From an uncultured bacterium (GTDB lineage Bacteria > Verrucomicrobiota > Verrucomicrobiia > Verrucomicrobiales > DEV007), in assembly GCA_963977015.1 (NCBI GenBank), contig CAXBMO010000003.1, forward strand, positions 414,560 to 478,559: 64,000 bases of DNA, written 5' to 3'. Each line of letters opens with the position of its first letter. The stretch's first letter is position 1. This document shows, piece by piece, positions 1 to 45,166 of this stretch. The notes under the pieces were generated by a model, which did no database searches, was not told the DNA's origin, and saw nothing but the letters and a program-made list of their open reading frames with translations. The position numbers and the translations under genes were made by a program.

Positions 1-477
1 GGAACGCCCAAATGCCTTCCCAAAGTTGAGGGAATCCCCTTTATCGTCCACGACGCGGGAGCCCATGAGCCACTTGCCCCAGGTGTTGGCGCGCAGAAAC
101 GTATTGTAGTTGAACCAGGTGAACCAAACTCCGATAAATCCGAACACCCCTACTGCGATGGCGGGTGCCCACTGCGGGCCTTCAGGAAGTTTGGCGATCA
201 GCCCAATCGATGCCGCGTAAAACACGACGGAACAAATCAGGAGGTCAATCCCTTTGGCGACAAACCGTCGTCCTCTTCCCGCCAGCATCATGCCAGGAAC
301 CTGGACCATCGGCACATTGACCACGTTCTCGTGAATCGGGTTTACCAACTCCATTTGATCGGGAATCGCCTCAGCCTGCGCCCCAAGTTCAAACAAGGGC
401 CGATCCTCCCCTCCGGAGCCTAACTCAAAGAGTGGCCGTTCCTCGGTTTCACCGTAATCTGGATTTGAATCGTTCAT
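1..477 (-). CDS. RDD-family membrane protein (3' end truncated by the window edge)
   Basis: Translated by hand; not in the ORF track. The ATG at 477 abuts the moaD stop. It reads ...LAGRGRRFVAKGIDLLICSVV... and ...TWGKWLMGSRVVDDKGDSLNFGKAFGRS, matching the RDD pattern (RxxAxxID...TxGKxxxxxRVV). Confidence 0.75.
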   Translation of the reverse strand, partial: MNDSNPDYGETEERPLFELGSGGEDRPLFELGAQAEAIPDQMELVNPIHENVVNVPMVQVPGMMLAGRGRRFVAKGIDLLICSVVFYAASIGLIAKLPEGPQWAPAIAVGVFGFIGVWFTWFNYNTFLRANTWGKWLMGSRVVDDKGDSLNFGKAFGRS

Positions 478-31684: not shown

Positions 31685-32989
31685 TTACGGCGAGGCGGAA
31701 ATCTCTGCGGTTGGCGAAGGTGCCGGCAAACTCTGTTTCGCAGTTGCCAAGCTATGGGCAACCGACCAGGCAACGATTGCACTCGCAATTAAAAGCCCGA
31801 CACCACCAACCGACCAGCCAATCTGTTTGGGGCGATCATTTTGTTCAAAGGCATTTCTCATTCCACCAAAGGCAAAGACCCCTCCAGCCCCCAGAGCCGC
31901 CACCGGCAGGGCGATTCCAAGCCAGGTCAGCGCCCCCATCCACTCCGGTCCGGAACCAGGGAGAAAATAAAGGAGCCCAAAGGCCAAAACAATCACCAAC
32001 CCAACCACGGACCATTGCAAAACGGTGGTGGCATCGCGACAAAAATTCCGGATTCGAAGCAGCGTTTCCGCCAGATTCCGCTTGGCATGACAGATTCCGT
32101 TTTGCTTCGGAAACGGGTGTTCAAAGGCCCGGATCGCTTCAATGCAGAACGGATCCAATGGTTTACTCTCAAAGATGAGCTGTGTGTTGCGGTAAGCCTC
32201 GACCACCGTTTGGCTAATGGGCAGCTTTCCAATCACATTGAGAACACTCTTTCGGCCCACCCGGTCGCGTTCCGAGTCGAGAACCCGATTGTAAATCACA
32301 CTGACTCCGCCGACATCCCGTCCAACGGCCTGGGCCAGTGAATGGAGGGATTGCACAAAACTGAGATCCTGTTTTCCGGCGACTTCCCCCGGCTCGGTAA
32401 CGATGACCACCGAATCCGCCACTACCGCTGCGACCGAGGCCCGCGTATCAGCGCCCCCACGGCTATCGATCAGGATGAAATCGTATTCCCGCTTAAACCG
32501 ATCCATGAGCTCCTCGTAGTAGGGCAAAAGATTCCGGTCGATAAAGTCTTCGCCTTCCGGATCCGGCTCGATCTCCGGCATTTCATCCTCATTTTGGGAG
32601 GCCAGCGGAGTTTTCCACCACGCGAGGTTATTCAAGAGAACGGCAACCTCGAATTCGCCGACCGCGGGAGCCTCAAACATGAGTCGAAGGGGAGCCACAT
32701 CTGCCGAAGGAATTTTTTGAGAATAGCAATCGTAGAAACAGGTCTGCGGATGAATCAAACCGGCTTCGGCCCCGCTCTTCAGCCGTTCACCTCCCGCGAG
32801 CAAGTAGGAGGCACCACCCGTCGCGTAGTCGTTATCGATCACTAGGACACGATTTTTCCAATCCTTCCCTTCCGGTGATGCGAGATGACGCGCGCTGGCT
32901 AACTCCACGGCAAAGTTAGCGGTCAGGGTCGTCTTGCCTGTTCCGCCCTTGCCGCTAACAAAGGCTACTACAAAGCAGTCGTCACTCAT
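31685..32989 (-). CDS. MinD/ParA-family ATPase with three C-terminal TM helices
   Basis: Deviant Walker A SGKGGTGKTT; VLVIDND; YDFILIDSRGG; IVTEP; YNRV; three hydrophobic C-terminal segments. Confidence 0.85.
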   Translation of the reverse strand: MSDDCFVVAFVSGKGGTGKTTLTANFAVELASARHLASPEGKDWKNRVLVIDNDYATGGASYLLAGGERLKSGAEAGLIHPQTCFYDCYSQKIPSADVAPLRLMFEAPAVGEFEVAVLLNNLAWWKTPLASQNEDEMPEIEPDPEGEDFIDRNLLPYYEELMDRFKREYDFILIDSRGGADTRASVAAVVADSVVIVTEPGEVAGKQDLSFVQSLHSLAQAVGRDVGGVSVIYNRVLDSERDRVGRKSVLNVIGKLPISQTVVEAYRNTQLIFESKPLDPFCIEAIRAFEHPFPKQNGICHAKRNLAETLLRIRNFCRDATTVLQWSVVGLVIVLAFGLLYFLPGSGPEWMGALTWLGIALPVAALGAGGVFAFGGMRNAFEQNDRPKQIGWSVGGVGLLIASAIVAWSVAHSLATAKQSLPAPSPTAEISASP

Positions 32990-33100
32990 GGTGTGTAAAT
33001 CGGGTGCGCGTAATTGGATCGGTGGTTGCGTTAGAATAGGAGGGCGCACCGTTCCACTAGCAAGTGGAAAATCTGCCTCGAACCACCTTTTGCAGTTCCC

Positions 33101-33448
33101 CTAAATCTGGCGGAGCAGCCAGTTCAGGAACATCAAAACCAAAAAATACGTGATCCCAACCACGCTGGCATTTTTGATCCCCACCCGGAAGAAAAAGTGA
33201 GTGATTCCCGCCGTGGCTCCAATCATCACCAGCCACCCGACATAGGTGACCACGTGCTTCAGAGCCATGGACGAAGAATTGAAGAAGACCTGCTCCGTAA
33301 TTTCGGCAATTCCAAGGCTGATGCCGAACACCAGGATTCCCGTGACGACCGTCTTCCAAAACGCATAGTCCTGCTCCTTGCGGGCGGACATGATGAGGGT
33401 TCCGGTCAACGCAACTGCCGCCAGGATGTAAATGAGGTAAATCTCCAT
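33101..33448 (-). CDS. Small 4-TM membrane protein
   Basis: 115 aa with four hydrophobic segments; GGAG about 10 nt upstream of the ATG. Confidence 0.75.
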   Translation of the reverse strand: MEIYLIYILAAVALTGTLIMSARKEQDYAFWKTVVTGILVFGISLGIAEITEQVFFNSSSMALKHVVTYVGWLVMIGATAGITHFFFRVGIKNASVVGITYFLVLMFLNWLLRQI

Positions 33449-33578: not shown

Positions 33579-35303
33579 TCAGGAATTCTGGCTAATCGCG
33601 ATTCGCAATTCTCGCGCACGATCTTCCAGTTCGTCTCGCTCTGCCTTGGTGGCCTCAAGTCTTCCGGCGTAAAAGTCGAGCTGATCTTCGGCCTTCTTCG
33701 CCTGAGCCAAAGCTTCGTTGGCAACCTCCTCAGCTTCGGTCTTCTTGGCCAAAGCCGCCTCTGCCTCTTGAAGGTAAACGCTGGTATTTTTCTCCGCCTC
33801 AACAGCAGACGTTTCCAGCTCGGCAATTCGTTGGGTCAGCTCCTTTTCCCGATTCTCCATAATCGGGATATTCTTGTGAGCTTCCTCCATCTCCCGCTGA
33901 ACGGTGAGTTTCTTCTCGTTCAGCTCCTCCACTTCTTTCTTCGCCGCATCTACCGCCGCCTGGCGCTGGTTGAATTCTTCGTTCGTGGTTCGCAGCTTTG
34001 CCTGAACCGCCTCCATTTCTTCACGGAACTTCTGGGCCTTCTCACGAGACGATTCCAAGTCCTTGATCTCGGCAGAAAGTTTCTGGTGCTTCGCATCCAG
34101 CTCCGGCAATTCATTTTTCACCTCTGCAAGATGCTCGGCAGCAGCCTGCCGATCTTTCTCCAACTTGGAAATATCAGATTCCAGATTCGCAACGGTGTCC
34201 CGGTACTTCCACATCTGGTCATTCGTCTCTTTCAGCTCCTTCTTCGCAGTCTCGACATCTTCCTTCGCCGAGTCTGCCTTCGCCTTGGTTTCCTCAAACT
34301 CTGCGATTCGGGATTCCAGTCCGGCTTTGCGCGTCTCCAATTTCGGCAAATCATCACGAAGCCGATCGACACTTTCCTGCATCTCCAGCCGCTTCTCCTT
34401 CAGGGCGCTCAATTCCTTTCTCACCCGTTCCGTCGCGGTTGTTTTCTCCGTGAGATCTGACTCTGCGACTTCCAATTCTCCCTTCAAACGCTGAAGTTGA
34501 GCCTCGACTTCCGCAGTCTTGTCCTTCGCCTTGGAAAACTCTTCGTTCTGAGCACGCAAGACCTTGTTGCGCTCCTGAATCTCGCTGAACTCGCTCTTGG
34601 TCCGTTCCAAATCCTTGCCGACGACGGCTTTTTCTTCCCGGAACTGGTCGACTTCAATGTCGAGCGCTTTCCGCTCGGTCTTGAGTGCATCCATTTCGAG
34701 TTTCCCCTTCTCGAGCTTCGTCTCGATTTCCGAAAGCTCTTTCTTCAATTCCCCGATCGCCTCACGATTGGCCTCCATGCTCCCGATCTCTTCCTCGAGC
34801 GCTTTCTTCCGAATCTCCAGAGACGGAATGGCACGGCGAGTCTGCTCGAGGTCGTTTTCCAATTCATCGTGTTCCTCGCCGAGGCGGGAGACGTCCTGCC
34901 GCAACGCGTCCAAAGAATTGCGCTGGTCATTGACCTCCTCCATCGTCTTTTCCAAGTCTCCCTTGGCGACGTTGATCTGATCGCGAAGCGGACTGAGCGC
35001 TTTCTCTTTTTCTTCTTTCTCTTCTGCCAATTCCGCCATCTGGGCACGAAGGCCCTTGCACTCCTTCTCCAGAACATCGCGGCGCAGTTTAAAGTCGCGG
35101 ATGCATTCCAGCAGCTCCTCGTGCTCGGACTCCAACGCTTCATGGCTGGAAGCTTTGCCGGTTTTCTCTGCCTTGGGGCGCTCCGGAGCGGAATCGGATG
35201 ATTTCATACGGTTGTCCTTGTCATTACCGTGCGAACCATCATCACTCGAAGAAGTTCGGAACGGTAAGGTGATGCGTTGCGTCCGACTGAGATCGTCACT
35301 CAT
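33579..35303 (-). CDS. Long segmented coiled-coil protein with 80-aa repeats
   Basis: About 510 aa of continuous E/K/L/A heptads after a polar head; no ATPase motif and no TM segment. Confidence 0.85.
   Translation of the reverse strand: MSDDLSRTQRITLPFRTSSSDDGSHGNDKDNRMKSSDSAPERPKAEKTGKASSHEALESEHEELLECIRDFKLRRDVLEKECKGLRAQMAELAEEKEEKEKALSPLRDQINVAKGDLEKTMEEVNDQRNSLDALRQDVSRLGEEHDELENDLEQTRRAIPSLEIRKKALEEEIGSMEANREAIGELKKELSEIETKLEKGKLEMDALKTERKALDIEVDQFREEKAVVGKDLERTKSEFSEIQERNKVLRAQNEEFSKAKDKTAEVEAQLQRLKGELEVAESDLTEKTTATERVRKELSALKEKRLEMQESVDRLRDDLPKLETRKAGLESRIAEFEETKAKADSAKEDVETAKKELKETNDQMWKYRDTVANLESDISKLEKDRQAAAEHLAEVKNELPELDAKHQKLSAEIKDLESSREKAQKFREEMEAVQAKLRTTNEEFNQRQAAVDAAKKEVEELNEKKLTVQREMEEAHKNIPIMENREKELTQRIAELETSAVEAEKNTSVYLQEAEAALAKKTEAEEVANEALAQAKKAEDQLDFYAGRLEATKAERDELEDRARELRIAISQNS
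33804..35063 (-). repeat. Intragenic 240-nt (80-aa) degenerate tandem repeat, about 5 copies
   Basis: Pro at residues 160, 320, 400 and 480 (CCG codons at 34826, 34346, 34106 and 33866), Ser at 240; hydrophobic positions align without gaps. Confidence 0.85.
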
Positions 35304-35545: not shown

Positions 35546-36451
35546 TCAAGGCCGAACGGTGTTGGATGGCGGATCGGCTGCGGTCACCGGCTGGATGGCC
35601 ATCACTCGTTGATGGATCTTAAGAATTTCCTGCGAAACCTCAAAGAACGAGTCCAGCGCTTCCGTATTGGCACCTTGTTCATCAATCAATTTGTTGAGTC
35701 CTGCCAAATAGTCGTCGGTCCCCTTTTTCAAACTGGCCATTTGCTTTTGCGCTCGCCCGTAGGCGGAGGCGACTTGCTTTCGCGCTCCATCAACAGCCTC
35801 GATTCGCCCTTGATCGCGATAATACTCCTGCATTTGCTCCTTCCACTCCGTGCTGAACATTCTGCGTAAGAACTTTCCTCGCATTTCGGGTTCAACAGCC
35901 TGCGCTTCCAGTTGTTTCGAAAGGTAGGCCTCCAGTTCCCGAAACTCATGAATCGGCTTTTCGTATTGTTGCTGGAGATAACTTAACCCGTTCGCGACGG
36001 CTTTGAGTTGCTCAACCTCTGCTGCCTGGAGCTTCTTCCCGTCCCGAATCTTCGATTCCAACTGCTCCATGACTTTCAACGTCTGACCGCTTTCATTCAC
36101 GATTTGCGAAATCGTATCGAGGCTCAACTGCAATTGTTGATCTTGCTGCTGCTTCTGCTGTTCAACTTGATTCGTCCATTCCCTGTTGAGGCGATCAATC
36201 TCGGCTTGATGCGTCGCAACCATCGTCGCGAACTGCCGTTGATGATCTTCGGTCTCTTCCTCCAGTTTTTTCGTGAGCTCCGCAACTTCGGCCTCCAACT
36301 CGGCAGCCGCGGTCTTGGCTTTGGATCCGTCCACTCCGAGGTAGCCCGCAGTTCCGATAGCGGCGAGAAGGCCGAGCCCCATTGAGATTGCGGTAACGAG
36401 AAATCCCCGATTCGGCGCATCTGCTCCAGGTTCATTGAGCATGTTTGACAT
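35546..36451 (-). CDS. Single-TM-anchored coiled-coil protein
   Basis: TM at about aa 17-39, then Q/E/K-rich heptads to the C-terminus. Confidence 0.8.
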   Translation of the reverse strand: MSNMLNEPGADAPNRGFLVTAISMGLGLLAAIGTAGYLGVDGSKAKTAAAELEAEVAELTKKLEEETEDHQRQFATMVATHQAEIDRLNREWTNQVEQQKQQQDQQLQLSLDTISQIVNESGQTLKVMEQLESKIRDGKKLQAAEVEQLKAVANGLSYLQQQYEKPIHEFRELEAYLSKQLEAQAVEPEMRGKFLRRMFSTEWKEQMQEYYRDQGRIEAVDGARKQVASAYGRAQKQMASLKKGTDDYLAGLNKLIDEQGANTEALDSFFEVSQEILKIHQRVMAIQPVTAADPPSNTVRP

Positions 36452-41684: not shown

Positions 41685-42416
41685 GTGGACGACGAATACA
41701 AGGTGCGGCTCGACATTTTCGAAGGGCCTCTCGATCTGTTGCTTTACCTCATCAAAAAGGACGAGGTCGATATCTATGATATTTCCATCGAGCGAATCAC
41801 GACCCAGTACATGGCGTATCTGGAGACGTTCAAGCTCCTGAACATCAACCTGGCTGGTGAGTTCATCGTGATGGCCTCCAATCTCATGTACATCAAGAGC
41901 CGATTGATGTTGCCGCGGCACGTTCAACCACCGGATGAAGAAGCCGAAGAAGATGATCCGCGCTGGGATTTGATTCGCCAATTGATCGAATACAAGAAGT
42001 TCAAGGATGCGGCCGCCTATCTCGGGCAGCGCGAGGAACAACAGACCGCCTATTTTCACCATTTGCCGGAAATCCCGGAGATTCCCGAGGATACCAAACC
42101 CCTTGGAGAGGTTGGAATTTTCGATCTGATTCAGGCTTTTCAGAACGTATTGCAACGTTTTGAGGAAAAGAAAGGGAGTTTCGGCGAGATCCAGGACGAC
42201 CACTGGACGGTCAGCGACAAGATTTCGCATCTTCTCGATGCGATTCAGCCTGGCAAGAGCATTTCCTTCTCAAAACTGTTTGCCGCCGCGAGTTCCAAAG
42301 GAGAAGTGATCGTCACCTTCCTTGCCCTGCTTGAACTGATGAAAGTAAACCATTTCAAAGCGATCCAAACCGAAACGCTCGGAGACATCGAGCTTCATCG
42401 GAACGAGGGAAGTTGA
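41685..42416 (+). CDS. scpA: Segregation and condensation protein A
   Basis: FEGPLDLLLYLI, KSRLMLP, L.EYKKFK and VTFLALLEL. Probable GTG start at 41685. Confidence 0.95.
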   Translation: MDDEYKVRLDIFEGPLDLLLYLIKKDEVDIYDISIERITTQYMAYLETFKLLNINLAGEFIVMASNLMYIKSRLMLPRHVQPPDEEAEEDDPRWDLIRQLIEYKKFKDAAAYLGQREEQQTAYFHHLPEIPEIPEDTKPLGEVGIFDLIQAFQNVLQRFEEKKGSFGEIQDDHWTVSDKISHLLDAIQPGKSISFSKLFAAASSKGEVIVTFLALLELMKVNHFKAIQTETLGDIELHRNEGS

Positions 42417-42433
42417 GCGAACGGCGTATCAAG

Positions 42434-45166
42434 ATGTCACAATTCAGCATCGGCATTGATCTCGGGACCACGAATTGCGCGCTCGCGTTTACCCCCTTGG
42501 GCGAAGGTTCCGCCAAAAGCCGGACGCTTCCGATTTCGCAATGGGACAGCGCCTCAACCCTTGTCGAAAGCGACACCCTTCCCTCATTTCTCTTTCTGCC
42601 AAATGAAGCGGAGCAGTCCGAACTTCGAGGAAAAGCCAAGGGCGGAAACTGGATCGTCGGGCGCTTCGCCAAAAATCAAACAACGAGTGCTCCGCTTCGA
42701 GTCGTTCACTCCGCCAAGTCCTGGCTTTCGACGAGTGGCGTCGATCGAGAGTCCGATTTCCTGCCCTGGAGTTCCGATCAGGTTCCGGCCGATGAGAAGA
42801 TCTCTCCCGTTCGGTCCTCGGCGCTGCTCTTAAACTATTTGCGGGACGTTTGGAATGACGCCCATCCCGAGGCACCTTTTGAGCAGCAGGACATCACGGT
42901 TACGGTCCCCGCCTCATTCGACGCGGTGGCCCAACGGCTTACGCTGAACGCAGCCGAGTCGGCCGGTTTCCCCAAAACGATGCGACTTCTGGAGGAGCCT
43001 CAGGCTGCCTTTTACAATTGGCTCGAGGTTCACGAAGAAGGGGGAACGCTCCAATCCATTCTCCCGGAACTTCCGGACCGGCCGCACACGATTCTCGTGG
43101 TCGACGTCGGAGGTGGCACCACCGATTTCAGCCTGTTTGACATCCGCTTGTGGAAAAACCGGAAGCTTCCCGTCATCAAGCGAATCACGGTCAGCAACCA
43201 TATTCTGTTGGGCGGGGATAATATTGACCTGGCCATCGCTCACGCTGCGGAAACGCAACTTGGCGAATCCCTGAATCCGGATCAATGGGGACATCTTGTT
43301 GCGCAGAGTCGACGGCTCAAAGAGGAAATCCTCTCGCAATCCGCGAAGGAAATTCACGACGCCGATCCATCCTTTTCGGTTTCCGTTCCAGGCCGGGGAT
43401 CGGGCTTGTTGGCCGGAACCCTAACCGCAAAACTGGAACGCAAGGATATCGAATCAATTCTCTTCGAAGGCTTTTATCCGGAATGCGCCGCAACCGACCA
43501 ACCGGAGCGAAGCAGCACCGGCTTGCGAGAATTTGGGCTCCCTTACGCGACCGATAGCGCCATCACTCGGCACTTGGCGGAGTTCCTGCAAGGCCAGCCC
43601 TTGGTTGATGGGATTCTGTTCAACGGAGGAAGCCTCAAACCCTCCGCGCTTCGCGAACGCATCACTCTACAGATTGCGAATTGGCAGGACGGCGCCTCTC
43701 CCACCGTTCTCAACAATCAGGAACCGGATTTGGCAGTCGCCCTCGGTGCCGCCAGTTACGGATTTCTTCTCAAGCATCACCATGCGCGAATCGAGGCCGG
43801 AGCCGCGCGATCCATCTACCTTGAAGTTCAACGCGGGGACGAAGCATCGCTGGTTTGTGTGTTGCCGAAAGGAACGCCCCAGGAGAAGGAGATCATTCTC
43901 GACGACCTCAGCCTGAGCCTGATTGTGAATCAACCGGTCCAATTTCGGGCCTTCAGCTCAGTGGCCAGGTCGAAGGAAAAGGCCGGCGACCTGGTCCATT
44001 CTTCAACTAAAAAGTTTCACACCCTTCCGTCGCTGCAGACGATTGCGTCGGCTGATGTAGAAGAGCAGATTCCCGTCTTCTTAAGCTCCAAGCTCAATGC
44101 AATCGGGGTGGTGCAGATCGAATTGGTGGCGAAAAACGCTCCCGAAACGCGTTGGCCGTTGCAATTCAATCTTCGGGAGAACAGCTCGACCGCGACCGGC
44201 GCCAATACCGGCACTGCACCGCCTCTTTCAAATATCGATCCGGAGGCACTCGAGGCCGCCCGGGATCGCATCACCTACCTTTTTGGCCATCCCTACAGCA
44301 AAAAGGACAAGCTGACGCCCAACCGCTTGACGGCCAGTCTGGAGACGATCCTCGAGCTTCCGAAATCGGAGTGGAACGCACCCCTGTTGCGGGAACTCTG
44401 GACGACTCATACCGATTGCTTCGACTGGCGCTACCAATCGGTCGAACACGAGGAAAGCTGGATCACGTTCGCCGGCTTTCTCCTCCGGCCCGGCTATGGG
44501 GTGGTCTTCGACGAAACCCGTATCGACCAACTTTGGCGGCTGCAGGAGGAAGATCTCTGGTTCCCTGGAAAACGGATCGAACAGCAATACTACATTCTGT
44601 GGCGACGGATTTCCGGCGGCCTCAACCGTGACCGGCAAGAAATCTTGATTCAGGAATCCCTCCCGATCCTGAAACGGCAGTCCAAACCCAGCGCGGAGCT
44701 GGTTCGCTTGCTGGGTAGCCTTGAAAGGGCCTCCATCGAGACGAAAACCGAAATCTGCGAACTCCTCATCGCGAAAGGTCGGGATTTGGGTGCTTCGGGA
44801 GGTTACGCGGAACCCTACTGGGTTGCCCTAACCCTCCTTCTCAACCGGGCTCCAACGTATGGAGGACCGGAGACGGCGCTGCCTCCGGACGTCGTTGGCC
44901 AAGCTTTTGATTCGCTTCGAGAGTTTGATTGGAAAAGTCCCGCATTCGCCGCCCTGGCTCCGGCGTTTCTAAGAGCCGCACGGCGGATCGACAACCGGGC
45001 TCTCGATTTGCCGAAACCCATCCAAAAGGAAATCCTTCAAAAGCTCAAAGCTTGCGACGTGTCCCCGGTGAAGCTGGCACCCTTGGAAAACTACGTTCCG
45101 ATTGAAGCGTCTGAGCAGGCAAGCCTGTTTGGCGAAGCTCTCCCCCCCGGACTGGTCCTCGGCTAA
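42434..45166 (+). CDS. Atypical Hsp70-family protein with a C-terminal DUF3731-like domain
   Basis: GIDLGTTN, SAKSWL, TVPASFD, EEPQAA, DVGGGTTD and LGGDNID; C-terminal HEESW...AGFLLRPGYG...WRRISGGL...LFGEALPPGL. Confidence 0.9.
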   Translation: MSQFSIGIDLGTTNCALAFTPLGEGSAKSRTLPISQWDSASTLVESDTLPSFLFLPNEAEQSELRGKAKGGNWIVGRFAKNQTTSAPLRVVHSAKSWLSTSGVDRESDFLPWSSDQVPADEKISPVRSSALLLNYLRDVWNDAHPEAPFEQQDITVTVPASFDAVAQRLTLNAAESAGFPKTMRLLEEPQAAFYNWLEVHEEGGTLQSILPELPDRPHTILVVDVGGGTTDFSLFDIRLWKNRKLPVIKRITVSNHILLGGDNIDLAIAHAAETQLGESLNPDQWGHLVAQSRRLKEEILSQSAKEIHDADPSFSVSVPGRGSGLLAGTLTAKLERKDIESILFEGFYPECAATDQPERSSTGLREFGLPYATDSAITRHLAEFLQGQPLVDGILFNGGSLKPSALRERITLQIANWQDGASPTVLNNQEPDLAVALGAASYGFLLKHHHARIEAGAARSIYLEVQRGDEASLVCVLPKGTPQEKEIILDDLSLSLIVNQPVQFRAFSSVARSKEKAGDLVHSSTKKFHTLPSLQTIASADVEEQIPVFLSSKLNAIGVVQIELVAKNAPETRWPLQFNLRENSSTATGANTGTAPPLSNIDPEALEAARDRITYLFGHPYSKKDKLTPNRLTASLETILELPKSEWNAPLLRELWTTHTDCFDWRYQSVEHEESWITFAGFLLRPGYGVVFDETRIDQLWRLQEEDLWFPGKRIEQQYYILWRRISGGLNRDRQEILIQESLPILKRQSKPSAELVRLLGSLERASIETKTEICELLIAKGRDLGASGGYAEPYWVALTLLLNRAPTYGGPETALPPDVVGQAFDSLREFDWKSPAFAALAPAFLRAARRIDNRALDLPKPIQKEILQKLKACDVSPVKLAPLENYVPIEASEQASLFGEALPPGLVLG

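What the first reader, a model, noticed from the sequence alone, without database searches (positions are those of the whole stretch)
33804..35063. Exact 80-residue super-repeat in the 574-aa coiled coil
Seen: Pro recurs at 160, 320, 400 and 480, with Ser at 240. The units align without gaps: AIP-SLEIRKKALEEEI, EFS-EIQERNKVLRAQN, DLP-KLETRKAGLESRI, ELP-ELDAKHQKLSAEI, NIP-IMENREKELTQRI. Leu is invariant at repeat position 37 (residues 117, 197, 277, 357, 437). Known: 80 = 11 heptads + 3, i.e. one stammer per unit. At about 0.15 nm per residue that is about 12 nm per segment and about 75 nm overall. Inference: strict length conservation despite sequence drift suggests staggered filament assembly, a molecular ruler or periodic binding sites.
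Basis: partly seen in the sequence, partly recalled or inferred. Interest (0 to 1): 0.7.

Follow-up and report, generated by a model that had tools for sequence, protein, structure and literature searches.

The report
Coiled-coil rod of exact 80-residue units
A rod-shaped bacterial protein is built from five copies of an exactly 80-amino-acid helical segment, and its relatives gain or lose only whole segments, which suggests that rod length is set in steps of about 12 nanometres.

Summary
The 574-aa ORF (33579..35303, minus strand) has Pro at 160/320/400/480, Ser at 240 and Leu at 117..437. Period 80 is the best super-period; 0 of 1000 heptad-preserving shuffles reach the combined score. Each unit is 11 heptads plus one 3-residue insertion at a fixed site, giving 23 seam turns per 80 residues.

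One same-genus orthologue has a gap-free rod; the other lacks exactly 80 residues. Synonymous sites are saturated.

A second family (Phycisphaeraceae: membrane anchor, rod, AAA_5-like NTPase) also uses 80-aa units. Its rod lengths differ by exactly +80, +160, +400 and +480. Its unit shares our hydrophobic pattern at a 20-residue offset.

No curated family fits. AlphaFold2 shows helices running through every Pro.

Function is inferred: a length-quantised spacer or scaffold presenting a conserved 24-residue box about every 12 nm. Linkage to the adjacent ParA/MinD-like ATPase holds in 2 of 3 species. I rate it a new variant of a known kind, of moderate to high interest.

The parts
33579..35303 (-). 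Whole gene, 574 aa plus stop codon: N-terminal peptide, disordered tail, about 520-residue helical rod
   Evidence: ORF list. Orthologues in G002 and G001. pN 0.29 against saturated pS 0.78. A strain variant in run X2 carries 11 synonymous and 4 conservative changes and no indel in the covered parts.
35262..35303 (-). Residues 1-14, conserved N-terminal peptide (M-S-D-x-L-S/T-R-T-x-R-I/V-T-x-P)
   Evidence: Invariant M1 S2 D3 L5 R7 T8 R10 T12 P14 in 3 of 3 orthologues. AF2 pLDDT below 50. A role as a partner-binding motif is inference.
35142..35261 (-). Residues 15-54, variable disordered tail; the only part of the protein with arbitrary indels
   Evidence: Gaps of 1, 6 and 10 residues among the orthologues lie here. 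pLDDT 32-44.
35055..35141 (-). Residues 55-83, highly conserved start of the rod (EELLECIRDF.LRRDVLEK.CK)
   Evidence: Run of invariant columns 57-86. The helix starts at residue 54 and pLDDT is 86-92.
34827..35066 (-). Unit 0, residues 80-159 (Lys instead of Pro at position 1)
   Evidence: Similar to units 1-4: mean BLOSUM 0.62-0.94, 14-17 identities out of 80.
34587..34826 (-). Unit 1, residues 160-239 (Pro160)
34347..34586 (-). Unit 2, residues 240-319 (Ser240)
   Evidence: The AF2 low-confidence break at 276-301 lies inside this unit.
34107..34346 (-). Unit 3, residues 320-399 (Pro320); its box DDLPKLETRKAGLESR is invariant in the three orthologues
33867..34106 (-). Unit 4, residues 400-479 (Pro400). 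One unit's worth of sequence in the span ~387-486 is absent from G001; the breakpoint cannot be placed more precisely
   Evidence: Offset 5 before the gap and 85 after it. Only a deletion of 80 fits: score 944 against 722 or less for every other size from 70 to 91. Near-equal scores for breakpoints at G001 residues 381-401.
33795..33866 (-). Residues 480-503: box of a sixth, truncated unit (Pro480, PIMENREKELTQRIAELETSAVEA)
Evidence: Unit 480-559 as a whole is only weakly similar to the others (-0.50 to 0.15).
33582..33794 (-). Residues 504-574: conserved C-terminal module (..QLDFY.GRLEATK.ERDELE.RAR.LRIAISQ)
   Evidence: Invariant columns 540-572. The same module occurs in FHA-domain coiled-coil proteins of the same genus and one other.

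Best explanation
The gene encodes a cytoplasmic, almost wholly alpha-helical rod protein of an uncultured Verrucomicrobiales genus. Its rod is assembled from an 80-residue structural module.

Shown:
- There are five full modules and the start of a sixth.
- Each module is 11 heptads plus one 3-residue insertion (a stammer) at a fixed place, which gives 23 turns of the hydrophobic seam per 80 residues.
- Each module opens with a conserved ~24-residue box: Pro, L3, R6, basic residues at 7-8, L10, acidic residues at 11 and 13, I14, F/M17, E18, R21, K23. About 56 fast-evolving heptad residues follow.
- Over a divergence that has saturated synonymous sites, the rod accepted no indel except the loss or gain of one exact module.
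- A second PVC-bacterial family uses the same 80-residue hydrophobic pattern and varies only in whole modules.

Inferred:
- Selection acts on rod length modulo 80, not merely modulo 7.
- 23 seam turns per 80 residues corresponds to about one turn of the supercoil (0.9-1.0 for 3.62-3.64 residues per helical turn). Adding or removing a module would then change length by about 12 nm without rotating one end against the other, and all boxes would face roughly the same side.
- The protein therefore acts as a length-quantised spacer or scaffold (about 77 nm; about 65 nm in G001). It offers an equivalent site every ~12 nm, with the conserved rod ends and N-terminal peptide serving assembly or partner binding.
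- What binds to it is unknown.
For: - Repeat real and in register.
- Length quantum in orthologues: G002 gap-free over residues 66-574; G001 lacks exactly 80 (135/321 identities at offset 5, 55/92 at offset 85, 10/92 with no deletion; only d = 80 fits, 944 against 722 or less).
- Internal control: the 55-residue N-terminal tail of the same protein has gaps of 1, 6 and 10 residues.
- Deep divergence and purifying selection: pS 0.75-0.78 (saturated); pN 0.15 in the boxes and 0.37 in the variable parts.
- No DNA-level repeat that could drive slippage or assembly collapse.
- Conservation peaks in the box: orthologue identity 0.76 in unit positions 1-8 against 0.28 mid-unit; R or K at position 6 in 11 of 11 units, Pro at position 1 in 8 of 11.
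- Helices continuous through all Pro (H54-275, H302-573; mean pLDDT 74).
- Second family: top lags 80/160/240 in P0002, P0151, P0152 and P0153. The anchor-to-Walker distance is 1605, 1685, 1765, 2005 and 2085 residues in five distinct proteins down to 57% identity, so every difference is a multiple of 80.
- Unit-to-unit comparison: gapless over 139 columns at offset 20, hhalign probability 94.9%, score 52.3, against 38.6 +/- 5.0 (maximum 48.1, 0 of 30) for heptad-preserving column shuffles.
- Supercoil arithmetic.
Against: - Only three orthologues exist, so 'no other indel' rests on two comparisons.
- No evidence on oligomer state or orientation. g-e' pairs are 10 opposite, 11 same, of 50, no better than permutation. 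The AF2 monomer folds back at a low-confidence break, 276-301.
- A charge-stagger scan is flat, so lateral staggered assembly has no support.
- The 'one supercoil turn' argument depends on the assumed helical periodicity: 0.78 turn at 3.60 residues per turn.
- The profile similarity to the second family exceeds register-only controls by only about 2.7 sd with 30 controls. The Pro sits 20 residues apart in the two unit types. The shared length could therefore be convergent or inherited.
- In the second family the units are similar enough that unequal recombination alone could generate whole-unit changes.
Confidence: 0.55

Rival explanations
1. The 80-residue quantum is an evolutionary by-product. 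The rod arose by tandem duplication, arrays change by in-register unequal recombination, and small indels are removed only because they break the heptad phase. On this view the number 80 has no functional or geometric meaning.
For: Whole-unit copy-number change is what repeat arrays generally do (general knowledge). In the P0002 family neighbouring units score up to 2.7 BLOSUM per residue, so recombination between units is plausible there. Copy number varies widely, from +1 to +6 units.
Against: In the window gene the units share only 35-46% DNA identity and there is no 240-nt repeat, so recombination between units is unlikely now. Heptad-neutral 7-residue indels are also absent from the rod despite saturated synonymous sites, whereas the tail has gaps of 1, 6 and 10 residues. 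Two families whose boundary Pro lies at different places share the same length and stammer position.
Confidence: 0.25
2. The protein is the coiled-coil partner or scaffold of the adjacent membrane-anchored ParA/MinD-like ATPase, working like PomX or Scy. Its invariant basic N-terminal peptide would contact the ATPase dimer, and the rod would form the positioning matrix.
For: The gene lies two genes upstream of a deviant-Walker-A P-loop ATPase (AAA_31, ParA, CbiA, MipZ above Pfam cut-offs), in the same orientation, in the window and in G002/L021. The N-terminal peptide has invariant R7 and R10. Passages read in PMC3718342 say ParA binds the regular-repeat coiled-coil domain of Scy. That ParA partners use short basic N-terminal peptides is recalled, not tested here.
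Against: In G001 the ATPase, with its 115-aa membrane-protein neighbour, and the coiled-coil gene lie on different contigs with different neighbours. In another genus (L022) the ATPase has no coiled-coil neighbour. The ATPase is 81-85% conserved, the rod protein 46-55%. No binding test could be run.
Confidence: 0.15
3. Each 80-residue unit is a folded helical hairpin or bundle, spectrin-like or like the seryl-tRNA-synthetase arm. Pro and a mid-unit polar patch would mark turns, and the protein would be a string of compact domains and not one long rod.
For: There is a Pro at unit boundaries and a polar or Asn-rich patch at unit positions 40-43. There are weak Pfam similarities to EzrA (E 0.001) and, for P0002, to Seryl_tRNA_N.
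Against: The heptad pattern runs unbroken across the Pro, which sits at a b position. AF2 gives continuous helices through Pro160, Pro320, Pro400 and Pro480 and through every mid-unit patch except one low-confidence stretch. There is no lag-40 signal among the top 25 lags.
Confidence: 0.04
4. The periodicity is a chance or compositional artefact of a Glu/Lys/Leu-rich sequence.
For: Coiled coils give many spurious self-matches and database matches: 437 profile hits at E of 0.001 or less, almost all generic.
Against: 0 of 1000 heptad-preserving shuffles reach the combined score. Pro phasing has P of about 3e-6. The exact 80-residue indel in G001 gives independent confirmation. Only 1 of 15 coiled-coil-like frames, out of 4534 frames of 300 aa or more in the genome, has 80/160 as its top lags.
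Confidence: 0.01

Closest known systems
Scy / FilP class of bacterial coiled-coil cytoskeletal proteins (CC51 repeat)
   Same: Long bacterial rod proteins whose coiled coil follows a regular long-period repeat and not plain heptads. Passages of PMC3718342 describe a 51-residue repeat forming 14 turns and say ParA binds that domain. Passages of PMC6599971 describe FilP forming striated filaments with a repeat of about 60 nm.
   Different: Here the period is 80 residues with 23 turns (3.48 residues per turn, overwound by a stammer), not 51 with 14 turns (3.64). Lag 51 is not among the top 25 lags. No sequence family match. Different phylum. Filament formation is untested.
P0002 family (Phycisphaeraceae): membrane anchor, array of 80-aa units, AAA_5/McrB-like NTPase; not named by any source
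   Same: Exact 80-residue units made of heptads plus one stammer. Same hydrophobic pattern at a 20-residue offset (hhalign 94.9%, gapless over 139 columns). Pro, Ser or Ala at a fixed unit position. Length changes only by whole units.
   Different: About 17 to 23 units instead of 5. An N-terminal transmembrane helix and a C-terminal NTPase, which the window protein lacks. The Pro lies 20 residues away relative to the stammer. Similarity beyond shared register is modest (52.3 against a control maximum of 48.1). The AAA_5 hit of P0002 itself is below Pfam's cut-off (18 against 22 bits).
Crescentin and intermediate-filament proteins
   Same: Head, rod and tail layout with the most conserved motifs at the two rod ends. 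Isolated breaks in the heptad pattern. Atlas neighbours include crescentin clusters at 0.80-0.82, below the 0.9 level at which the tool says a hit is more than a lead.
   Different: Pfam Filament scores 25.6 bits against a cut-off of 40, and Rod_CreS was not reported at E of 0.01 or less. IF rods have non-periodic linkers and one stutter (recalled), not a strictly periodic stammer.
Tropomyosin and axonemal CCDC39/CCDC40 rulers (recalled from general knowledge; no paper read)
   Same: Coiled coils in which a quasi-repeat longer than the heptad sets equally spaced binding sites or a fixed length.
   Different: Eukaryotic, with different periods and known partners. No homology. The comparison is functional analogy only.
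PomX-type activators of ParA/MinD ATPases (recalled; no paper read)
   Same: A coiled-coil-rich protein with a short conserved basic N-terminal peptide, encoded near a ParA/MinD-like ATPase.
   Different: Gene linkage is kept in only 2 of 3 species. No binding or ATPase test. The ATPase here carries C-terminal transmembrane segments.

Membership tests
Alpha-helical coiled coil | a/d hydrophobic heptad pattern over long stretches | tested here: met
   Stable heptad phase within each unit. a positions are L16 I8 V8 R6 K6 and others; d positions are L21 A7 V6 and others. 3.48-residue charge periodicity, z = 9.2.
Alpha-helical coiled coil | Helical secondary structure along the rod | tested here: met
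   AF2: H54-275 and H302-573, mean pLDDT 74.3.
Alpha-helical coiled coil | Two or more strands associate; number and orientation | not testable with these tools
The g-e' charge test is uninformative: 10 opposite, 11 same, of 50.
Scy/FilP CC51 class | 51-residue repeat, 14 turns | tested here: not met
   Lag 51 is absent from the top 25 lags; the period is 80 with 23 turns. The definition comes from passages of PMC3718342.
Intermediate filament / crescentin (Pfam Filament, Rod_CreS) | Family HMM match above the curated cut-off | tested here: not met
   Filament 25.6 bits against 40; Rod_CreS not listed at E of 0.01 or less.
Intermediate filament / crescentin | Self-assembly into filaments | not testable with these tools
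   Needs purified protein.
Pfam CENP-F_leu_zip (PF10473) | HMM score above the gathering cut-off | tested here: inconclusive
   45.4 bits against 34.5, so the formal cut-off is passed. The model is a eukaryotic leucine-zipper repeat and also hits the unrelated P0015 at 62.8 bits. I read it as coiled-coil composition, not kinship.
P0002-type 80-aa unit proteins | Exact 80-residue period with one stammer per unit, in the same place relative to the conserved box | tested here: met
   Hydrophobic profiles correlate at 0.74 at the best circular shift. Gapless alignment over 139 columns at offset 20.
P0002-type 80-aa unit proteins | Sequence similarity of the unit beyond shared register (homology) | tested here: inconclusive
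   hhalign 52.3 against heptad-preserving controls of 38.6 +/- 5.0, maximum 48.1, n = 30. Single-unit frames gave only 43% probability.
P0002-type 80-aa unit proteins | N-terminal membrane anchor and C-terminal AAA_5-like NTPase | tested here: not met
   The window protein has neither.
ParA/MinD partner protein (PomX- or Scy-like) | Conserved genomic linkage to the ATPase | tested here: inconclusive
   Linked in the window and in G002/L021. Unlinked in G001. Absent beside the ATPase in L022.
ParA/MinD partner protein (PomX- or Scy-like) | Direct binding to, or activation of, the ATPase | not testable with these tools
Spectrin-like or helical-hairpin repeat | Each repeat folds back into a bundle with loops | tested here: not met
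   Continuous helices across unit boundaries and mid-unit patches. The heptad pattern is unbroken at the Pro.

The most novel reading that the evidence does not exclude
An 80-residue module with 23 seam turns (about one supercoil turn, about 12 nm) is an inherited structural quantum of PVC-superphylum coiled coils. It lets cells build rods of defined, tunable length, from about 65 nm to more than 250 nm, whose two ends keep a fixed rotational relation and whose conserved boxes line up on one face. The window protein would be a five-step ruler or scaffold that docks a periodic partner, such as the membrane ParA/MinD-like ATPase or the FHA-domain proteins that share its C-terminal module. The Phycisphaeraceae proteins would hold an NTPase at set distances from the membrane.
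Probability: 0.2. Interest if true: 0.8.

Novelty: new variant of a known kind. Interest (0 to 1): 0.6.

Why it matters
Long-period order in coiled coils is what turns a generic rod into a ruler or a periodic docking surface. Tropomyosin, the myosin rod, axonemal rulers and Scy are examples (the first three recalled from general knowledge).

Here the period is exact, unusually long and built around a regularly recurring stammer. Two bacterial families show natural 'length mutants' that differ only by whole units. That offers a clean experimental system for asking how a cell measures distance with a coiled coil, and whether one stammer per 80 residues tunes the supercoil so that units stack without rotation. 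It also offers a designable module for protein engineering: rods adjustable in 12-nm steps.

It also flags a genus-restricted, unannotated protein that may belong to an unstudied cytoskeletal or positioning system in uncultured marine Verrucomicrobiales.

I found no description in print. The phrase search for 80-residue or 80-amino-acid repeats returned 6 papers, none on such a coiled coil judging by title and abstract start. The searches did not surface one either. Subscription journals are not covered.

Tried and rejected
- Word-indexed homologue search at similar lengths: no hit at E of 0.001 or less.
- The search for related loci with the protein: one generic 31% match in a Bacteroidaceae contig.
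- Exhaustive profile search: 437 hits, 150 listed, no true orthologue (best 138 bits). 149 of the 150 lack an 80-residue period.
- Weak hits in other genera of the family (L005-L009, L011): no 80-residue period.
- C-terminal module search in 121 genomes of the family: 5 genomes. Outside the three orthologues, only FHA-domain paralogues.
- Protein atlas: all feature scores 0.86 or less and TM 0.37 or less, so leads only.
- NCBIfam: 16 hits, all far below cut-off.
- Charge-stagger scan, parallel and antiparallel: no outstanding stagger.
- g-e' salt-bridge test: no excess of opposite charges.
- Unit-similarity matrix: no pair of neighbouring units stands out, so there is no sign of a recent duplication.
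- Single-unit hhalign against P0002: 43% probability. Superseded by the two-unit test.
- Complex prediction: the ATPase dimer + ATP + N-terminal peptide job, then two copies of residues 150-410, were never accepted. The queue was full and the tool was then declared unavailable. Nothing was folded.
- Sequencing runs: no RNA holder listed. The four DNA runs laid are fragmentary contigs, and uncovered parts say nothing.
- The search of earlier findings was not open.
Tandem Repeats Finder had been run in the same turn.
- Fold search was not run. A pTM 0.22 hairpin model of a coiled coil would give meaningless matches.
Full report
WHAT IS THERE. The finding lies inside a 574-aa ORF at 33579..35303 on the minus strand. 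Its coordinates cover residues 81-500. The window has about 54% G+C. Relatives of a neighbouring gene come from MAGs labelled Verrucomicrobiales. Runs that hold the gene are labelled marine metagenomes. The protein has no signal peptide or hydrophobic segment (sequence). It has a disordered 54-residue head and then helix to the end (AlphaFold2: H54-275 and H302-573, mean pLDDT 74.3, pTM 0.22).

CHECK OF THE OBSERVATION.
- Four of the five rod prolines share one class mod 80. The chance is about 3e-6, or about 1.2e-3 if any period from 30 to 120 is allowed.
- In a BLOSUM62 self-comparison, lags 160, 80 and 240 rank 1st, 2nd and 5th of 299.
- Against plain shuffles z = 9.6, 8.7 and 6.7 (0 of 1000).
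- I used two heptad-preserving nulls that keep the 80-residue frame. One shuffles residues within heptad classes inside each unit; the other permutes whole heptads inside each unit. Single lags give z = 2.3-3.6. The combined statistic S(P)+S(2P)+S(3P) peaks at P = 80 (1.62 against 0.70 for the runner-up, 94) and is reached by 0 of 1000 shuffles under either null.
- The repeat is therefore positional homology between units, not just a recurring register.
- In 16 of 17 sliding windows the best local lag between 66 and 94 is exactly 80.
- There is no 240-nt DNA repeat, and units share 35-46% DNA identity. The duplications are old.

ANATOMY OF THE UNIT. The best heptad phase steps 4>0>3>6>2, a shift of +3 once per unit. 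I stacked 11 units from three orthologues, counting Pro as position 1. The conserved hydrophobic positions are 3, 10, 14, 17 | 24, 27, 31, 34, 38, 45, 55, 59, 62, 69, 73, 76, 80.
- The 3/4 spacing is regular except for a 7-residue step between 17 and 24. That is one 3-residue insertion, a stammer.
- The register runs unbroken across the Pro, which falls at a b position.
- The strongest periodicity of charged residues is the 23rd harmonic of 80, at 3.478 residues, z = 9.2. So there are 23 turns of the seam per unit, as expected for 11 heptads + 3.
- Conservation is uneven. Orthologue identity is 0.76 in unit positions 1-8 and falls to 0.28 mid-unit. Between-unit similarity is 1.28 per column for positions 1-24 and 0.80 for 25-80. 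Position 6 is Arg in 10 and Lys in 1 of 11 units. Position 1 is Pro in 8, Ser in 2 and Thr in 1.
- Each unit is therefore a ~24-residue box (from the Pro to the stammer) followed by about 56 drifting heptad residues.
- Units 80-159 to 400-479 are all mutually similar. The stretch 480-559 keeps only the box.
- The rod ends (residues 57-86 and 540-572) and the first 14 residues are nearly invariant.

THE PREDICTED TEST: DO HOMOLOGUES DIFFER BY MULTIPLES OF 80? Among 41 related genomes, only two of the same genus hold a clear orthologue. A search with the C-terminal module in 121 genomes of the family added only FHA-domain paralogues.
- G002 (564 aa, 55% identity) differs in length only in the disordered head. 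Its rod is gap-free.
- G001 (488 aa) aligns at offset 5 up to about residue 395 (135 of 321 identical) and at offset 85 afterwards (55 of 92, against 10 of 92 with no deletion).
- Scanning deletion sizes from 70 to 91, only 80 fits (944 against 722 or less).
- As an internal control, the 55-residue head has gaps of 1, 6 and 10 residues.
- Synonymous sites between the species are saturated (pS 0.75-0.78), while pN is 0.29 for the rod, 0.15 for the boxes and 0.37 for the variable parts.
- A strain variant in run X2 shows 11 synonymous and 4 conservative changes and no indel in the covered parts.

A SECOND FAMILY WITH THE SAME QUANTUM. The exhaustive profile search returned 437 hits, and the listed 150 are generic coiled coils. 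Only 1 of the 150, P0002, has 80 and 160 as its top lags.
- P0002 has 1972 aa: an N-terminal hydrophobic helix, roughly 17 units between residues ~100 and ~1480, Pro at 400, 480, 880 and 960, and a C-terminal P-loop domain.
- Pfam scores that domain as AAA_5 at 18 bits, below the cut-off of 22. More distant relatives carry PF07728 in precomputed annotation, and one is named McrB by its source.
- Relatives of the C-terminal domain include P0151, P0152 and P0153 (91-96% identical there), and locus L035 (57% identity over the whole protein). All have top lags 80, 160 and 240, L035 in the order 80, 240, 160.
- The distance from a motif just after the membrane helix to the Walker motif is 1605, 1685, 1765, 2005 and 2085 residues. 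That is +80, +160, +400 and +480, all exact.
- The record titles label these MAGs Phycisphaeraceae.
- Their unit is also heptads plus one stammer.
- I used natural two-unit windows so that any phase could align. The two unit types then align without a gap over 139 columns at an offset of exactly 20 (hhalign 94.9%, score 52.3). Heptad-preserving column shuffles of our profile give 38.6 +/- 5.0, maximum 48.1, with 0 of 30 reaching the observed score. Full shuffles give 10.8.
- Most of the score is therefore the shared hydrophobic pattern, and a modest part goes beyond it.
- The Pro lies 20 residues apart in the two families. Homology of the module is possible but not shown.
- In the window's own genome, 15 of 4534 open frames of 300 aa or more have coiled-coil-like composition. 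Only this one has 80/160 as its top lags.

HOW IT MOST LIKELY WORKS (inference). Twenty-three seam turns per 80 residues is 3.478 residues per turn. For a helix of 3.62-3.64 residues per turn, the supercoil then completes 0.90-1.02 turns per unit, against about 0.8 per 80 residues of plain heptads.
- A unit would thus add about 12 nm (80 x about 0.15 nm, a recalled rise) without rotating one rod end against the other.
- All boxes would lie along roughly one face.
- That would explain why only whole units are tolerated even though 7-residue indels would keep the heptad phase.
- I therefore read the protein as a length-quantised spacer or scaffold, about 77 nm long and about 65 nm in G001. It would offer equally spaced equivalent sites, with conserved ends for assembly or docking.
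- This argument is sensitive to the assumed helical parameter: 0.78 turn at 3.60 residues per turn.

WHAT IS NOT SHOWN. Strand number and orientation are open.
- g-e' pairs are 10 opposite and 11 same, of 50, no better than permutation.
- The AF2 monomer folds back at a low-confidence break (276-301). That break is not at a unit boundary, and judging by eye the orthologue sequences there still look helix-forming.
- The complex predictor was never available.
- A charge-complementarity scan found no preferred stagger, so staggered lateral assembly has no support.

CONTEXT. On the same strand lie a 301-aa membrane-anchored coiled-coil protein (35546..36451), this gene, a 115-aa membrane protein (33101..33448) and a ParA/MinD-type P-loop ATPase with hydrophobic C-terminal segments (31685..33049). 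A cNMP-binding protein gene diverges upstream.
- The arrangement recurs in G002/L021.
- In G001 the coiled-coil gene, the 301-aa gene and the ATPase pair sit on three contigs with other neighbours.
- A more distant ATPase locus, L022, has no coiled-coil neighbour.
- A PomX- or Scy-like partnership is thus possible but weakly supported.
- The C-terminal module recurs in FHA-domain coiled-coil proteins (Pfam FHA, E 1.9e-18 for L004).
- The invariant N-terminal T-x-x-I/V could, from recalled FHA specificity, be a phospho-threonine docking site. This is untested.

COMPARISON AND NOVELTY. No curated family fits. Pfam Filament is below its cut-off. CENP-F_leu_zip is formally above its cut-off, but I read it as compositional. 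All NCBIfam hits are far below their cut-offs.
- The nearest known kind is the regular long-period coiled coil of bacterial cytoskeletal proteins: Scy CC51, 51 residues with 14 turns, bound by ParA (passages of PMC3718342), and FilP striated filaments (passages of PMC6599971). The period, the helical arithmetic and the sequence all differ here.
- Searches for 80-residue repeat phrases returned 6 papers, none relevant judging by title and abstract start. Searches for stammer or super-repeat coiled coils found no description. Subscription journals are not covered.
- Verdict: real, statistically solid, and a new variant of a known kind. Function is inferred only.

Noticed in passing
P0002, P0151-P0153; loci L032-L035 (outside the window): Phycisphaeraceae proteins of 1972-2453 aa: an N-terminal membrane helix, about 17-23 exact 80-aa coiled-coil units (200-270 nm if extended) and a C-terminal AAA_5/McrB-like P-loop domain. 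Rod length varies only in whole units (+80, +160, +400, +480). No source names them.
   Followed up: yes
P0002 family, residues about 201-281 of each member: One unit near the N-terminus prefers lag 87 (80 + one heptad) in every member examined. This is a heptad insertion that is fixed, not variable.
   Followed up: no
window 31685-33049 (-) and 33101-33448 (-): A ParA/MinD-type deviant-Walker-A ATPase with hydrophobic C-terminal segments is always paired with a 115-aa membrane protein of no known family. The pair is adjacent in the window, G001 and G002, and the ATPase is 81-85% conserved. The true start of the ATPase is probably Met21. This is an unusual membrane-anchored architecture.
   Followed up: partly
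window 33582-33794 (-); L004, L011/L030, L027, L028, L029, L031: The C-terminal module of the rod protein (QLDF.x.RL.x.TK.ER...) recurs at the end of the coiled coil of several FHA-domain proteins in the same genus and in genus g8, including one elsewhere on the window's own contig (L031). A shared dimerisation or docking module is possible.
   Followed up: partly
window 35262-35303 (-): The invariant N-terminal peptide contains T8-x-x-I/V11 and T12-x-P14. From recalled FHA specificity this could be a phospho-threonine motif read by the FHA paralogues. Alternatively it could be a ParA-contact peptide.
   Followed up: no
window 35546-36451 (-): A 301-aa protein with an N-terminal membrane helix and a coiled coil, with no Pfam or NCBIfam family, lies 243 nt upstream in the same orientation. 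It is 64-74% conserved in the genus but unlinked in G001.
   Followed up: partly
P0015 (outside the window): A 1025-aa protein with an AAA_5 domain above the Pfam cut-off and a coiled coil whose dominant lag is 100 residues instead of 80. It may be a related architecture with a different quantum.
   Followed up: no
P0001, P0004 (outside the window): Giant proteins with near-identical 74- and 81-residue repeats (155 combined), which topped the profile search through repeated matches. They look like recent tandem arrays, unlike the old diverged units here.
   Followed up: no
L016 (G010:C89): The ATPase orthologue in genus g8 is read through one in-frame TGA, and the frame continues in a second piece. 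This could be a frameshift, a pseudogene or an assembly error.
   Followed up: no
window 42413-45166 (+): A 917-aa protein combining an Hsp70-like N-terminal part with DUF3731 ('DNA-K related protein').
   Followed up: no
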